From the NCBI RefSeq assembly GCF_030013205.1, contig NZ_CP122648.1: a stretch of DNA of 64,000 nt; one strand, written 5' to 3'. Below are positions 7,812 through 61,252 of this stretch, one piece after another (within the stretch, counting starts at the first letter, position 1; each line of letters begins with the position of its first letter). The notes under the pieces are model-generated. The model made no database searches. It saw nothing but the letters and a program-made list of their open reading frames with translations, and was not told the origin of the DNA. Source of the DNA: Escherichia coli (lineage in GTDB: Bacteria > Pseudomonadota > Gammaproteobacteria > Enterobacterales > Enterobacteriaceae). A program made the position numbers and the translations under genes.

Positions 7812-11044
<3,233 letters not shown>

Positions 11045-17027: not shown

Positions 17028-17051
17028 GCCGCCCTTCGGGGCGGTTTTTTT
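17028..17051 (+). terminator. Rho-independent terminator after fumA
   Basis: GCCGCCC-TTCG-GGGCGG hairpin followed by TTTTTTT, 6 nt after the fumA stop. Confidence 0.75.
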
Positions 17052-57381: not shown

Positions 57382-57612
57382 ATGCTTAAAACTGACGCTC
57401 TTTTGTATTTCGGTTCAAAAACAAAACTTGCACAAGCAGCAGGTATTCGTTTGGCTTCGCTTTATAGCTGGAAAGGGGATTTAGTTCCCGAAGGTCGCGC
57501 GATGCGTCTACAGGAGGCATCTGGCGGGGAGCTTCAGTATGATCCCAAAGTTTATGATGAATATCGTAAGACGAAGCGGGCGGGGCGGTTGAACAATGAA
57601 AATCACTCCTGA
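57382..57612 (+). CDS. dicC: Cro-like regulator DicC
   Basis: 76-aa ORF divergent from dicA; recognised as DicC. Confidence 0.9.
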   Translation: MLKTDALLYFGSKTKLAQAAGIRLASLYSWKGDLVPEGRAMRLQEASGGELQYDPKVYDEYRKTKRAGRLNNENHS

Positions 57613-57919
57613 ACAGGCTCGTGAGGCTCTGGATGCCTGGATATGTCGACCAGGAATGACACAGGAGCAGGCGACGATATTAATCACTGAAGCATTCTGG
57701 GCTTTGAAAGAGCGCCCGAACATCGATGTTCAGCGTGTCACATATGAAGGTGGCGCGATTGATCAGCGAGCGCTTGGCGTTATCTGGTCATCACCTGACG
57801 GAGAAATACGTCGCTACGACAGTCGCCTAAACATAATCTGTCGCGAGTGCCGGAAGAGCGAAGTTATGCAGCGCATACTGGCTTTCTATCAGGGTAATTT
57901 TCAGGACGTGGCGCAGTGA
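57596..57919 (+). CDS. hypothetical prophage protein (YdfX-like position), Cys-containing
   Basis: 107-aa ORF overlapping the dicC 3' end by 17 nt; CxxC at CRECRK; family not assigned. Confidence 0.5.
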   Translation: MKITPEQAREALDAWICRPGMTQEQATILITEAFWALKERPNIDVQRVTYEGGAIDQRALGVIWSSPDGEIRRYDSRLNIICRECRKSEVMQRILAFYQGNFQDVAQ

Positions 57920-58272
57920 GTGCACCGGCAACCATTCTTGATATGTGCTGTGGCAGCCGCATGTTCTGGTTCGATAAGTCTGACGAACGGGCGATATTCA
58001 GCGATATCAGAAAAGAAGGATACACATTACGCAATGGGAGACGCTTGATTATCAGCCCTGACATTATCGCAGATTTTCGTGCATTATCATTTGCAGACGC
58101 ATCTTTTTCGATGGTTGTATTAGACCCTCCGCATCTTGAGAGTGTTGGTGATAACGCCTGGATGGGAAAGAAATATGGACGGCTGAATAAAGATGCCTGG
58201 CGTGATGATTCGCGACAGAGATTTAAAGAAGCCTTTCGGGGGTTGAGGCCGCACGGCGTTCTGATTTTTTAA
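57916..58272 (+). pseudogene. short SAM-methyltransferase-like ORF, probably truncated
   Basis: 118-codon ORF starting at GTG overlapping the upstream stop; motif-I-like ILDMCCGS and DPPH (DPPY-like); ends at a T6 run. Confidence 0.4.
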
Positions 58273-58631
58273 TGGAATGAAACGCAAATACCGGTAAGCC
58301 AGATTCTGGCACTGACAGACAGAAAACCTGTTATCTGTCAACGAACAGGGAAAAAACGATAAAACCCACTGGATTATTTTTATGAAAGAGGCATCCAGTG
58401 AGTAGATTCGTAAGGCTACAGATACGTATATCTGAATAATTAAATTCAGTTCTGTAAATAAAATTTAATCCTTAACCGGATGGATTTCTGCACCCTCAGA
58501 ACATCAGGAGGCCGCCCGAAAGGGCGGTAGTGAAATGCGAATGTTCAAAATTATTATTGAAACGGGAATAGCTGGTGGAGATTTTGAGGATGTATTCGAA
58601 GTGGACGATGACGCAACACCTGAGGAAATTC

Positions 58632-58886
58632 ATGACGGAGCATAAGAAATTTTCTTTAACTACTGCAATTACTCATACCACGAAATAAAAGACGATGAGG
58701 AAGAACAAAGTGGCTGATTTTTGTTCAGCTAAATATAACATCAGTTTTGAAGAGCGGGATGAACTATTAATGGACTATGGTGAGTTACGCGGTGGAAGTG
58801 CTGCTGATGTCGAATCCTAGCGTGATGACTATGAAGCGGGAAAAACTCCGGTCGAAGCATATTGTGATGAGTGGGGCGATGAATGA
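58632..58886 (+). pseudogene. reading frame interrupted by in-frame TAA and TAG, otherwise open
   Basis: Hand translation MTEHKKFSLTTAITHTTK*KTMRKNKVADFCSAKYNISFEERDELLMDYGELRGGSAADVES*RDDYEAGKTPVEAYCDEWGDE*. Confidence 0.3.
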
Positions 58887-59170
58887 GCGAGATTAATTAT
58901 CAGGAAGGGCATGAAACGGCGGGGCAAGCAAAACCAGTGGCATGGCGATATCGCTACGTGAAAAAAGGCGTTACGGACTTTCAGGGGAAGTAGTGGTCTG
59001 GTGACTGGAAATATGTACCGAAAAAAGAGGATTGTAACGACAGGCCGAACTATCAAATTCAGGCCTTATTCACTGCCTCACCAGTCCCAGTTACATCAGA
59101 AGAACTGGTTAAAGCTGTGCACTTTTATGAACAACTAAAACGCGAAAATCCACCAACATCCGGCAACTAG
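58883..59170 (+). pseudogene. reading frame interrupted by one in-frame TAG, start overlaps previous stop (ATGA)
   Basis: Hand translation MSEINYQEGHETAGQAKPVAWRYRYVKKGVTDFQGK*WSGDWKYVPKKEDCNDRPNYQIQALFTASPVPVTSEELVKAVHFYEQLKRENPPTSGN*. Confidence 0.3.
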
Positions 59171-59424
59171 ATTAATGGATTAACTATGTCGGTTAAACGA
59201 CCAGCCAACTGAAAAAGCGGAAACCTGATTACAGGTTGCCAGATAAGGCAATGAGCTACCTGGCGCGGAACGGACTGATAAGTATGGGGAATGTTTTACG
59301 ATGAACCTTTAGACTAAAGAGTTTGTAACGCTATGTAAGTGATTTTTTCTGGTTTAGATATTTATATGTCCGGCCAAATTGAGGTGTGTTTAAATGTAAT
59401 TGCACATTGATTGTAGGAGGAATA

Positions 59425-59604: not shown

Positions 59605-59938
59605 ATACAGCGAACTCCATTGGTTTAGTTGGATATTTACTGTGCTGGACAAAAACGGTTTGCGGGGAAATCTTAGTTAAGTAGAATGACTGCGGGTGCT
59701 TGAGGCTATCTGCCTCGGGCATGGACACCAACGGCAGATAGAGAAAAGCCCCAGTTAACATTACGCGTCCTGCAAGACGCTTAACATTAATCTGAGGCCA
59801 ATTTCATGCTAGACACATGTAGGTTAGCCTCTTACGTGCCGAAAGGCACGGAGAAGCAGGCTATTGTTAACACCAAGTTGTAATGTCCCCTTTGAACCAT
59901 TCTAAAATGTCCCCAGACAATTCTCTGGGGGATTTTTC

Positions 59939-61252
59939 ATGATCAAAGAGACTGTTACGATGAGTCATAAGGAACTCCACCGACTTCAGATTATTCAGGA
60001 ACAAGCTGCGGCACGCATTGGCATTTCTATTCGGCAGGTTAAACGTCTGGTGCAACGGTATAGAAATGAAGGGCCTTCTGGTCTGGTTTCCCACCGACGT
60101 GGAAAGCGTCCTAATAATTCCTTTTCTACTGAATTCAGAGCAACAGTAATTTCACTCCTCAAAGGCCGTTACGCTGATTTTGGACCTACGTTTGCGTGCG
60201 AAAAATTGCGCGAGATACACGGTTTATCTTTATCCGTTGAAACTCTCAGAAAGTGGATGATAGAAGAGGGGTTATGGCGTGAACGCCGTCGTAAAATTGC
60301 CCGTATATATCAACGCCGCATGCGACGACCATCTTACGGTGAACTGATCCAGATTGATGGCTCACCTCATGACTGGTTTGAAAATCGAGGCCCCAGATGT
60401 ACACTGATCGTTTTCATTGATGATGCCACCAGTGCGTTGATGGCGTTGCGTTTTGTGCCTGCTGAAACAACCCGGGCTTACATGGAAACCCTCCGGGGTT
60501 ACCTTAATGATCATGGCGTACCGCTCGCTCTCTACTCTGATAGACACAGTATATTCAGGGTAAATAACCCAGAGCGGGAAGGTGAGCTGACCCAGTTCAC
60601 TCGTGCGATAAAGACACTGGGCATCGAGCCAATCCATGCCAACAGCCCGCAGGCAAAAGGGCGGGTAGAGCGCGCCAATCAGACACTACAGGACAGGCTG
60701 GTCAAAGAAATGCGGCTTCAGAATATCAGTGATATTGAAACAGCAAATGCATGGTTGCCGACCTTTATTGAAGCCTATAACAACCGGTTCGCTACGTCGC
60801 CTCGTACTACTGATAATGCTCATCTTGATGTGCACCATTCTGAAGAGGAACTGGGTTATATCTTCAGCCTACAGGCGAAGCGCGTTCTGTCTAAAAATCT
60901 CACTTTCCAGTACAAAAGCAGTGCGTTTCAGGTACGCAGTGAGGGCCGGGGATATCGACTTAGGCATTCGGTTGTTACTGTATGCGAGAACTTTGACGGT
61001 GAAATTAACGTTCTGTATGACGGGAAAGCGCTGGGCTGGGAAAAGTATGTTGATGGCCCGGAGCCTATACCACTGGATGATGAAAAGAGTGTCCATGAAC
61101 GAGTGGATAATGCCCGTATTGATTTACGCTCAAAATACTATGTTAAACCTAAAGCTGACCATCCCTGGCTTACGCGCCGAACGCAAAGTCATCAGCAAGT
61201 TAAGCCCCCGAAGTTACCTAAAAAGAAGCCTGATCCCGATAAAAAAGATTGA
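59939..61252 (+). CDS. DDE transposase with N-terminal HTH and rve-type integrase core (IS481/ISNCY-like), Lys-rich tail
   Basis: 437-aa ORF; HTH at IGISIRQVKRLVQRY; acidic residues in DGSPHDW / FIDDATS / RVERANQ context; family assigned from memory only. Confidence 0.65.
   Translation: MIKETVTMSHKELHRLQIIQEQAAARIGISIRQVKRLVQRYRNEGPSGLVSHRRGKRPNNSFSTEFRATVISLLKGRYADFGPTFACEKLREIHGLSLSVETLRKWMIEEGLWRERRRKIARIYQRRMRRPSYGELIQIDGSPHDWFENRGPRCTLIVFIDDATSALMALRFVPAETTRAYMETLRGYLNDHGVPLALYSDRHSIFRVNNPEREGELTQFTRAIKTLGIEPIHANSPQAKGRVERANQTLQDRLVKEMRLQNISDIETANAWLPTFIEAYNNRFATSPRTTDNAHLDVHHSEEELGYIFSLQAKRVLSKNLTFQYKSSAFQVRSEGRGYRLRHSVVTVCENFDGEINVLYDGKALGWEKYVDGPEPIPLDDEKSVHERVDNARIDLRSKYYVKPKADHPWLTRRTQSHQQVKPPKLPKKKPDPDKKD

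What the first reader, a model, noticed from the sequence alone, without database searches (positions are those of the whole stretch)
58505..58645. AGGAGG, a GAAA-tetraloop hairpin, then a 36-codon acidic ORF
AGGAGG at 58505-58510 is followed by the hairpin GCCGCCC-GAAA-GGGCGG (58511-58527) and then an ATG at 58535 opening MRMFKIIIETGIAGGDFEDVFEVDDDATPEEIHDGA*. The ribosome-binding-like site is too far from the ATG unless the hairpin brings them together, or the hairpin is an RNA end or processing structure. It is not followed by a U-tract.
Basis: seen in the sequence. Interest (0 to 1): 0.3.

Follow-up and report, generated by a model that had tools for sequence, protein, structure and literature searches.

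The report
Hairpin-bridged ribosome site before pseudogene
A ribosome-binding sequence sits 23 bases from its start codon, and a very stable RNA hairpin between them most likely loops out to bring the two together, as in phage T4 gene 38; in this window the small prophage gene it serves has been killed by a stop-codon mutation.

Summary
The hairpin GCCGCCC-GAAA-GGGCGG is at 58511-58527, the ATG is at 58535, and no U-tract follows.

The 36-codon ORF is not a gene in its own right. It is the front part of a 60-codon DUF7167 (phrog_1997) gene broken by AAA->TAA at codon 37. It sits in a decayed Qin/Rac-type lambdoid prophage whose neighbouring genes are also broken.

The SD plus hairpin is a conserved, portable unit in E. 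coli lambdoid (pro)phages.
- It precedes at least seven unrelated genes, always with the ATG 6-11 nt after the stem.
- Its upstream context also varies.
- The SD and the GNRA loop are more conserved than codon positions 1 and 2.
- The stem varies mostly by G.U-compatible changes.

Its architecture and stability closely match the T4 gene 38 initiation region, where a hairpin cuts the SD-AUG spacing from 22 to 5 nt. Here the spacing falls from 23 to 6-7 nt.

The best reading is a hairpin-bridged (split) ribosome-binding site, with confidence about 0.55. The main rival is a cryptic SD sequestered in the 3' arm. No experiment exists. This is a new member of a known, rare kind, of modest interest.

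The parts
58433..58443 (+). TGAATAATTAA, the start of the conserved intergenic block. It gives stop codons in all three frames and contains the stop codons of the various upstream genes in relatives.
   Evidence: Read from the sequence. The conserved block begins here behind at least five different upstream gene ends.
58432..58449 (+). AT-rich hairpin CTGAAT-AATTAA-ATTCAG in the leader. Its role is unknown.
   Evidence: It is retained, with G.U pairs or as a different AT-rich stem, in leader variants. It is absent from the 'short' context, so it is not part of the minimal unit.
58469..58497 (+). Upstream leader core. It holds UCCU (58469-72, which can pair with AGGA of the SD) and hairpin 1 (GAGGG-N9-CCCTC; arms at 58479-83 and 58493-97). 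The window has T58481 where the consensus has G. That weakens hairpin 1 and creates an ATG opening a 16-codon uORF (58480-58530).
   Evidence: The ArgO145 short context lacks this segment, so it is not required for the SD-hairpin unit.
58506..58511 (+). Shine-Dalgarno sequence AGGAGG, 23 nt upstream of the ATG.
   Evidence: Duplex with the 16S 3' end is -10.3 kcal/mol. A GGAG core is kept in 161 of 168 loci found with an anchor that left it free. Nucleotide diversity is 0.028, below codon positions 1 and 2.
58511..58528 (+). GNRA-tetraloop hairpin: G.U plus six G-C pairs, loop GAAA at 58518-58521.
   Evidence: -15.5 kcal/mol with pair probability about 1. Paired in 95.6% of cells across 75 distinct leaders, with two compensatory pairs. 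The loop is GNRA in 81 of 84 distinct sequences.
58529..58534 (+). A-rich spacer (AGUGAA) between the base of the hairpin and the start codon.
   Evidence: Spacer length is 6-11 nt in all contexts. The sequence is free to vary, with diversity 0.14.
58535..58717 (+). DUF7167 / phrog_1997 pseudogene of 60 codons, with an in-frame TAA at 58643-58645 (codon 37; AAA in relatives).
   Evidence: (RefSeq: 'DUF7167 family protein, internal stop').
58710..58886 (+). Next gene (58 codons, phrog_519-like), also dead. It has a GTG start where relatives have ATG, and an in-frame TAG at 58818-58820 where relatives have TGG.
58883..59304 (+). Third gene, frameshifted by a 2-bp deletion in the A-run at 58961-58966.
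   Evidence: alignment; RefSeq: 'frameshifted; internal stop'.
57962..58405 (+). Upstream SAM-dependent methyltransferase pseudogene, the last gene before the leader. Coordinates are accurate to about 1 nt.
   Evidence: (RefSeq annotation of the identical sequence, transferred to window coordinates).

Best explanation
The feature is the translation-initiation region of a small early gene (DUF7167 / phrog_1997, 60 aa, acidic, function unknown). It lies on the rightward early transcript of a decayed Qin/Rac-type lambdoid prophage. AGGAGG is the real Shine-Dalgarno sequence. The very stable GNRA-tetraloop hairpin directly 3' of it stays folded on the ribosome and loops out 17-18 nt. That shortens the SD-to-AUG distance from 23 nt to an effective 6-7 nt, which is within the working range. 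This is a 'split' or hairpin-bridged ribosome-binding site, as in phage T4 genes 38 and 25. The SD plus hairpin is a portable unit of about 26 nt. In E. coli lambdoid (pro)phages it sits at mosaic junctions and drives initiation of whichever gene follows. A rigid local hairpin may also stop the SD and AUG pairing with changing neighbouring sequence; this last point is inference. In this window the unit is intact, but the gene it serves is a pseudogene (AAA->TAA at codon 37), as are the next two genes. Shown here: the sequence, the pseudogene status, the conservation, the variable flanks, the spacing and the match to T4 gene 38. Inferred: that the hairpin enhances initiation rather than represses it.
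For: (1) Pseudogene. The in-frame continuation is visible. TAA aligns with AAA in intact relatives. RefSeq annotates the identical sequence as DUF7167 with an internal stop. The restored protein hits Pfam DUF7167 at E = 1.2e-12.
(2) Portability downstream. The same leader and hairpin precede at least seven unrelated first genes: DUF7167, DUF4014, ead/Ea22-like proteins and others. The ATG is always 6-11 nt after the stem.
(3) Minimal unit. In ArgO145 and Stx2a phages the upstream leader is absent and only stop-TGTC-AGGAGG-hairpin-spacer-ATG remains. This short form again precedes three different genes. A Klebsiella phage DUF7167 homologue has no hairpin, so the unit belongs to the junction, not to the gene.
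(4) Constraint. Nucleotide diversity is 0.028 for the SD and 0.026 for the loop, against 0.056-0.059 for codon positions 1 and 2. It is 0.10 for the stem, 0.14 for the spacer and 0.16 for codon position 3. The stem is paired in 95.6% of cells. Its changes are mostly C->U on the 5' arm, which keeps G.U only in the + strand RNA, plus two compensatory pairs.
(5) Natural knock-out. Where a reverse-strand gene replaces the downstream ORF, the SD (GGAAG) or the loop (AAAA) is mutated in 2 of 3 haplotypes.
(6) No SD in the spacers of nearly all variants.
(7) Precedent. In T4 gene 38 the spacing goes from 22 to 5 nt, and in gene 25 from 27 to 11 nt, and destabilising mutations lower translation (review PMC3014915). 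Folded side by side, T4 gene 38 is UAAGGAG-[8 bp, UUCG]-AAAU-AUG at -16.7 kcal/mol. The window is CAGGAGG-[7 bp, GAAA]-AGUGAA-AUG at -16.9 kcal/mol.
Against: There is no experimental evidence: no transcript, ribosome or reporter data for this element. Formal covariation is not significant; two double-sided changes are reached by about 100 of 500 shuffles, because the sequences are 94% identical. The element was found only in E. coli-type phages, so there is no deep phylogeny. The loop plus 3' arm (AAGGG-C-GGU) can itself pair with the anti-SD at -8.2 kcal/mol with a bulge, and it sits at canonical 6-nt spacing. So a sequestered-SD model predicts much of the same conservation. The strong conservation of the loop sequence is not required by a pure spacer-shortening role. 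High conservation could partly reflect recent spread by recombination. Two of the three search anchors fixed parts of the leader by construction.
Confidence: 0.55

Rival explanations
1. Sequestered SD with an upstream standby site. The functional SD is the G-rich loop plus 3' arm (AAGGGCGGU), 6 nt from the AUG. The hairpin hides it and holds translation down. The upstream AGGAGG acts as a standby or landing site from which the 30S subunit captures the real site when the hairpin breathes or is opened, for example by a ribosome or a factor.
For: The duplex of the 3' arm region with the 16S 3' end is -8.2 kcal/mol at ideal spacing. The loop A residues, which would be part of that SD, are highly conserved, with diversity 0.026. 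The 3' arm varies less than the 5' arm. SD-sequestering hairpins are common in phage mRNAs such as T4 e, soc and 49 (PMC3014915). An unrelated metagenomic virus has GGAGA-CCTCCC-GAAA-GGGAGG-7nt-ATG, where the 3' arm is a perfect SD (L193).
Against: A hairpin of -15.5 kcal/mol with pair probability near 1 would shut off initiation almost completely, yet it precedes many intact genes. The anti-SD pairing needs a bulged C. The lower variation of the 3' arm is equally predicted by G.U tolerance on the C-rich 5' arm. The perfect AGGAGG abutting the stem, the low diversity of the SD (0.028), and the homology boundary lying just 2 nt upstream of AGGAGG in the short context all point to the upstream SD being used.
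Confidence: 0.15
2. No dedicated function for the hairpin. The conserved roughly 26-95 nt block is a homology 'linker' at a mosaic junction. It is kept similar by frequent recombination and recent spread among E. coli lambdoid prophages, and the hairpin is incidental.
For: Both flanks vary while the block is about 94% identical. The block starts with stops in all three frames. The element is confined to E. coli-type phages. Covariation is not statistically significant.
Against: Conservation within the block is graded by element, in the order SD and loop, then stem, then spacer, rather than uniform. Stem changes are biased towards pair-preserving C->U on one strand. The start codon is always 6-11 nt from the stem. 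The SD or loop decays where no start codon follows. Recombination alone predicts none of these.
Confidence: 0.12
3. RNA-end or stability element. The GC-rich hairpin blocks 3'-5' exonucleases and stabilises the upstream part of the operon mRNA, or it marks a processed end. Its position next to the SD is secondary.
For: It is a very stable GNRA hairpin without a U-tract in an intercistronic position. Such hairpins are known 3' barriers in polycistronic mRNAs (general knowledge). In five loci it directly abuts a convergent gene.
Against: This role does not explain the fixed 6-11 nt distance to the start codon, the abutting conserved SD, or the lack of any other SD for the downstream genes. No Rfam family or terminator signal matches. 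It cannot be tested without RNA end mapping.
Confidence: 0.1
4. Protein-binding hairpin of the boxB type. The GNRA loop is bound by a phage or host protein (an N-like arginine-rich peptide, or a translational repressor) that controls antitermination or translation.
For: The GNRA loop sequence is more conserved than the stem. One variant has the GAAAA pentaloop seen in lambda boxB (lambda boxB recalled from general knowledge). A boxA-like UCCUUAAC lies upstream in the long leader.
Against: There is no boxA at the usual 8-10 nt upstream. The boxA-like segment is missing in the short context. The unit occurs in both PR-side and PL-side operons, far from promoters, and always directly before a start codon. 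No N-like gene was identified in this DicA/DicC-type prophage. There is no Rfam match.
Confidence: 0.05

Closest known systems
Phage T4 gene 38 translation-initiation region (split SD/AUG bridged by a hairpin)
   Same: The SD directly abuts a GC-rich hairpin capped by an extra-stable tetraloop, followed by a short A-rich spacer and the AUG. T4 is UAAGGAG-[8 bp, UUCG]-AAAU-AUG at -16.7 kcal/mol. The window is CAGGAGG-[7 bp, GAAA]-AGUGAA-AUG at -16.9 kcal/mol. Linear spacing is 22 against 23 nt, and bridged spacing is 5 against 6-7 nt. In both, the upstream gene's stop codon can lie right at the SD.
   Different: The phage group differs (temperate lambdoid against virulent T-even), with no sequence homology. 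The loop is GNRA rather than UUCG. Here the unit is portable and heads many unrelated genes. Function is shown by mutagenesis in T4 but is untested here. Here the 3' arm is itself weakly SD-like.
Phage T4 gene 25 'accommodated' ribosome-binding site (Nivinskas 1999; Malys & Nivinskas 2009, as cited in PMC3014915)
   Same: [quoted passage not shown] The structure is conserved among close relatives only, as it is here.
   Different: The intervening structure is larger and the bridged spacing longer. It belongs to one gene junction (26-25) rather than being a mobile module.
SD-sequestering hairpins (T4 e, soc, 49, I-TevI; RNA thermometers)
   Same: A stable hairpin overlaps G-rich, SD-like sequence just upstream of the AUG.
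   Different: In those cases the only SD is inside the helix and the structure represses translation. Here a perfect, unpaired AGGAGG lies outside the helix.
Lambda nut boxB (GNRA-like hairpin bound by N)
   Same: A short GC stem with a GNRA-type loop on an early lambdoid transcript.
   Different: There is no boxA at the proper distance, the position is not promoter-proximal, it is always directly before a start codon, and it is a tetraloop rather than a pentaloop.
Intrinsic terminator (for example the one at window 17029-17044)
   Same: The stem sequence is nearly the same, CCGCCC...GGGCGG.
   Different: The 17-kb hairpin is followed by TTTTTTT on the + strand. The 58.5-kb hairpin is followed by UAGUGAAAUG, and no terminator is called there.
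E. coli thrS 'split ribosome binding site'
   Same: The ribosome accommodates a folded hairpin within its binding site (PMC3936740).
   Different: In thrS the hairpin lies upstream of the SD, between two single-stranded ribosome-binding segments. It is not between the SD and the AUG.

Membership tests
Hairpin-bridged (split) translation-initiation region, T4 gene 38/25 type | The SD lies too far from the start codon in linear sequence (more than about 13 nt). | tested here: met
   AGGAGG at 58506-58511 and ATG at 58535, so 23 nt lie between them.
Hairpin-bridged (split) translation-initiation region, T4 gene 38/25 type | A stable local hairpin lies wholly between the SD and the AUG. | tested here: met
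   58511/12-58527/28, at -15.5 kcal/mol with pair probability about 1. The local z-score is -3.67.
Hairpin-bridged (split) translation-initiation region, T4 gene 38/25 type | The folded structure brings the SD-AUG spacing into the functional range (5-11 nt). | tested here: met
   6-7 nt remain in the window. The range is 6-11 nt across all gene contexts.
Hairpin-bridged (split) translation-initiation region, T4 gene 38/25 type | No alternative SD at normal spacing. | tested here: inconclusive
   The spacers lack an SD in nearly all variants. However, the loop plus 3' arm can pair with the anti-SD at -8.2 kcal/mol with a bulge.
Hairpin-bridged (split) translation-initiation region, T4 gene 38/25 type | The structure is conserved among relatives. 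| tested here: met
   95.6% of cells are paired in 75 distinct sequences. Changes are mostly G.U-compatible, with two compensatory pairs. Formal covariation is not significant at this shallow divergence.
Hairpin-bridged (split) translation-initiation region, T4 gene 38/25 type | Destabilising the hairpin lowers translation and restoring it rescues translation. | not testable with these tools
   This needs reporter fusions or toeprinting.
DUF7167 (Pfam PF23768) / phrog_1997 protein | A sequence match above the family threshold. | tested here: met
   The restored 60-aa sequence scores 48.1 bits against a cut-off of 24.4, E = 1.2e-12. phrog_1997 matches at E = 9e-31.
DUF7167 (Pfam PF23768) / phrog_1997 protein | An intact reading frame of about 57-60 codons. 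| tested here: not met
   There is an in-frame TAA at codon 37. RefSeq records a pseudogene with an internal stop. The stop would cut the predicted helix 29-44 in half.
Intrinsic (Rho-independent) terminator | A GC-rich hairpin followed by a U-tract. | tested here: not met
   There is no U-tract on either strand and no terminator call.
Lambda-type nut site | boxA about 8-10 nt upstream of a boxB hairpin, promoter-proximal, with a cognate N protein. | tested here: not met
   There is no boxA adjacent to the hairpin. The distant boxA-like UCCUUAAC is dispensable. The unit lies deep in operons. No N-like gene was seen in the window's immunity region.
Any described RNA family (Rfam 15) | A covariance-model match. 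| tested here: not met
   Only sok, at 59694-59865, matches in 56-60 kb. Nothing matches at 58.4-58.6 kb even at E <= 10.

The most novel reading that the evidence does not exclude
The SD plus GNRA-hairpin unit is a natural portable ribosome-binding cassette of lambdoid phages. It would be a structure-insulated initiation module of about 26 nt that guarantees translation of whatever gene recombines in behind it. In the long form it is preceded by stops in all three frames. It would double as the homology patch at which accessory-gene modules are exchanged. That would make it the first hairpin-bridged SD outside the T-even phages and the first one that is mobile between genes.
Probability: 0.3. 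Interest if true: 0.6.

Novelty: new member of a known kind. Interest (0 to 1): 0.38.

Why it matters
Hairpin-bridged ribosome-binding sites are textbook curiosities known from only two T4 genes. A second, independent example would show that the arrangement is a reusable solution rather than a one-off. The region around this element matches about half of complete E. coli genomes (2644 of 5426), and the unit heads many different accessory genes. There is a practical side too. Gene callers mis-start these genes: DUF7167 is often called with a spurious 27-aa N-terminal extension that is simply the leader translated. A compact, context-insulated natural RBS would also interest synthetic biologists. 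For this particular window the element is a relic, because the gene behind it is dead.

Tried and rejected
- Rfam scan of 56-60 kb at E <= 10: nothing at the site, only sok further downstream.
- Promoter and terminator scan of 58.1-58.8 kb: no promoter in the leader and no terminator at the hairpin. By eye, the AT-rich part has a TAAAAT -10-like hexamer but no usable -35, so I rejected a promoter reading.
- Formal covariation test of both hairpins: not significant, because the sequences are 94% identical. RNAalifold gave a covariation term of only -0.19.
- Upstream UCCU:AGGA helix and hairpin 1 as an SD-sequestering switch: dropped as an essential part, because the ArgO145-type short context lacks them.
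- Leader as coding sequence (N-extended DUF7167 calls of 78-93 aa): rejected. The extension is the leader translated. It is closed by stops in other variants. The same leader stands in all three frames relative to different downstream genes.
- Search for distant relatives. All DUF7167 homologues found are from E. coli. The Klebsiella phage homologue lacks the hairpin. A degenerate-stem scan of viral contigs gave only the same family plus one unrelated look-alike. The species-representative genome scan gave 14 chance hits with unpaired stems and 2 mis-binned E. coli prophage contigs.
- K-12 CPS-53, which has a similar gene order, lacks the element, so K-12 transcriptome data do not apply.
- Literature: no paper mentions DUF7167 or the hairpin sequence.
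- Protein function: the AF2 model (pLDDT 78) and the Foldseek searches of PDB and BFVD gave only uncharacterised small phage proteins. There is no PDB sequence relative.

Full report
**1. The observation**

The sequence reads ...AACATC-AGGAGG-CCGCCC-GAAA-GGGCGG-TAGTGAA-ATG-CGA-ATG-TTC....
- The hairpin GCCGCCC/GAAA/GGGCGG is at 58511-58527 as stated. It has six G-C pairs plus a possible G58511.U58528 wobble.
- The ATG is at 58535.
- The 36-codon ORF at 58535-58645 translates exactly as quoted.
- No U-tract follows on either strand, and no terminator is called.

The hairpin alone folds at -15.5 kcal/mol with pair probabilities near 1. The 43-nt initiation region folds at -16.9 kcal/mol with z = -3.67. 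A 91-nt window is unremarkable at z = -1.24. A window-wide scan for SD, stable hairpin, short spacer and start codon finds only this site plus one weak candidate, against about 0.6 per shuffled window.

**2. The ORF is a broken gene**

Reading past the TAA gives ...HDGA*EIFFNYCNYSYHEIKDDEEEQSG*. In related phages (vB_EcoS-640R1, a Rac-type phage) the TAA is AAA and a 60-codon CDS is annotated. RefSeq annotates the identical sequence in E. coli K_EC180 as 'DUF7167 family protein, internal stop'. The restored protein matches Pfam DUF7167 (E = 1.2e-12) and phrog_1997, of unknown function.

An AlphaFold model of the intact protein (pLDDT 78) has a beta-hairpin, a helix at residues 29-44 and a disordered acidic tail. 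The stop at codon 37 would cut the helix. Fold and sequence searches give no functional lead.

The neighbours are also dead.
- The next gene has TGG->TAG.
- The third gene has a 2-bp deletion in an A-run.
- Upstream, the methyltransferase, YdaT and DUF977 genes are fragments.

The context is a decayed Qin/Rac-type lambdoid prophage: dicA, dicC, then the leader, a hok/sok locus and an ISNCY element.

**3. The SD plus hairpin is a conserved, portable unit**

In E. coli genomes many matches stop exactly at the ATG. In those prophages the same leader and hairpin precede unrelated genes. Two anchored scans of IMG/VR gave about 190 loci. A conserved block of about 95 nt is flanked by at least five different upstream gene ends and at least seven unrelated downstream genes. 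The ATG is always 6-11 nt after the stem.

The block begins with TGAATAATTAA, which gives stops in all three frames.

In ArgO145 and Stx2a phages the unit occurs twice, in the PL-side ea22 region. One copy has no upstream leader at all: stop-TGTC-AGGAGG-hairpin-TAGTTAA-ATG, a 33-nt gap. This short form again precedes three different genes. So the minimal shared unit is SD plus hairpin, about 26 nt. The upstream hairpin 1 and the UCCU segment that could pair with the SD are not required.

A Klebsiella phage DUF7167 homologue abuts its upstream gene with no hairpin. The unit therefore belongs to the junction, not to the gene.

**4. Evidence of selection**

With the SD left free by the search anchor, a GGAG core is kept in 161 of 168 loci.

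Nucleotide diversity was measured among 39 distinct DUF7167-linked loci:

| Element | Diversity |
|---|---|
| GNRA loop | 0.026 |
| SD | 0.028 |
| Codon position 1 | 0.056 |
| Codon position 2 | 0.059 |
| Stem | 0.10 |
| Spacer | 0.14 |
| Codon position 3 | 0.16 |

The stem varies in sequence but is paired in 95.6% of cells. Its changes are mainly C->U on the 5' arm, which gives G.U and is tolerated only in the + strand RNA. G->A changes on the 3' arm are rare. Two pairs show compensatory changes: CCACCC..GGGTGG and CCACCA..TGGCGG. The loop is GNRA in 81 of 84 distinct sequences.

Formal covariation is not significant, because the set is 94% identical.

In five loci (three haplotypes) a reverse-strand gene has replaced the downstream ORF. 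There the SD has become GGAAG or the loop AAAA in two of the three haplotypes. This hints at relaxed constraint once no start codon follows.

**5. Mechanism**

The geometry is that of the T4 gene 38 initiation region. A review (PMC3014915) records that a hairpin between the SD and the AUG reduces the spacing from 22 to 5 nt in gene 38 and from 27 to 11 nt in gene 25. It also records that destabilising mutations lower translation.

Folded side by side:

| Site | Arrangement | Energy (kcal/mol) |
|---|---|---|
| T4 gene 38 | UAAGGAG-[8 bp, UUCG]-AAAU-AUG | -16.7 |
| Window | CAGGAGG-[7 bp, GAAA]-AGUGAA-AUG | -16.9 |

Here the spacing falls from 23 nt to 6-7 nt. I therefore favour a hairpin-bridged (split) ribosome-binding site.

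The main rival is that the loop plus 3' arm (AAGGG-C-GGU) is the real SD. It pairs with the anti-SD at -8.2 kcal/mol, against -10.3 for AGGAGG, and it sits at canonical spacing. In that model the hairpin represses translation and AGGAGG is a standby site. Three points argue against it. The hairpin is extremely stable. The SD is strongly conserved. The homology boundary lies just upstream of AGGAGG in the short context.

The remaining rivals have less support:
- a pure recombination linker;
- an exonuclease barrier or RNA end;
- a boxB-like protein site.

**6. Comparison and novelty**

No Rfam family matches. No paper mentions DUF7167 or the hairpin sequence. In the literature searched, only T4 genes 38 and 25 have a hairpin between the SD and the AUG. 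The thrS 'split RBS' has a different geometry.

The element appears confined to E. coli-type lambdoid phages.

It is best filed as a new member of a known but rare kind. The added twist is that it is portable between genes. In this window it is a relic in front of a pseudogene.

Noticed in passing
window 58480-58530: A window-lineage G->T change at 58481 (consensus GGAGGG becomes GGATGG) creates an ATG. It opens a 16-codon upstream ORF (MDFCTLRTSGGRPKGR*) that runs through the SD and hairpin and stops at TAG 58528-30, 4 nt before the DUF7167 ATG. The same change weakens the upstream hairpin 1. It is probably accidental, since most relatives lack it.
   Followed up: partly
window 58433-58443: The conserved intergenic block starts with TGAATAATTAA, which gives stop codons in all three reading frames. 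Different upstream genes end inside it. It looks like a universal cassette boundary at a mosaic junction.
   Followed up: partly
window 17029-17044: Almost the same stem (CCGCCC-CGAA-GGGCGG on the - strand) is followed by TTTTTTT on the + strand and preceded by AAAAAAA. It is a classical, probably bidirectional, intrinsic terminator and a useful contrast to the hairpin at 58.5 kb, which has no U-tract.
   Followed up: partly
window 59694-59865 and 59939-61252: A strong Rfam sok match (104 bits), marking a hok/sok type I toxin-antitoxin locus, lies immediately next to an ISNCY-family transposase ORF of 437 aa.
   Followed up: no
window 57596-57919: Compared with the otherwise 99.8% identical phage PhiR42_1 (ECOR13), the window lacks about 1.6 kb of replication-region genes (cII-like, O, LygF). 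A YdaT fragment is fused to a DUF977 fragment. This is further evidence that the prophage is decaying.
   Followed up: partly
database proteins P0002-P0004, P0009: Many public gene calls for DUF7167 are 78-93 aa because the caller started upstream and translated the leader and hairpin (KSLTGGISAPSEHQEAARKGGSE). The distant SD apparently misleads start-site prediction.
   Followed up: yes
L193 (IMG/VR 3300020054_000659) 10392-10422: An unrelated metagenomic virus has GGAGA-CCTCCC-GAAA-GGGAGG-TTTTCTT-ATG. It has the same SD, GAAA hairpin and ATG layout, but its 3' arm is itself a perfect SD. It is either an independent case or a sequestered SD.
   Followed up: no
PP818812.1; L246 and L256: A record labelled 'Actinobacillus phage vB_Apl-pPE4' and two 'Collinsella sp.' MAG contigs carry this E. 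coli lambdoid region at 91-100% identity. The host or bin labels are probably wrong.
   Followed up: no
L167, L168, L175, L177, L076: In five viral contigs a reverse-strand, AT-rich gene is inserted immediately after the hairpin's 3' end. The hairpin therefore marks the exact junction of a moron-like insertion.
   Followed up: partly
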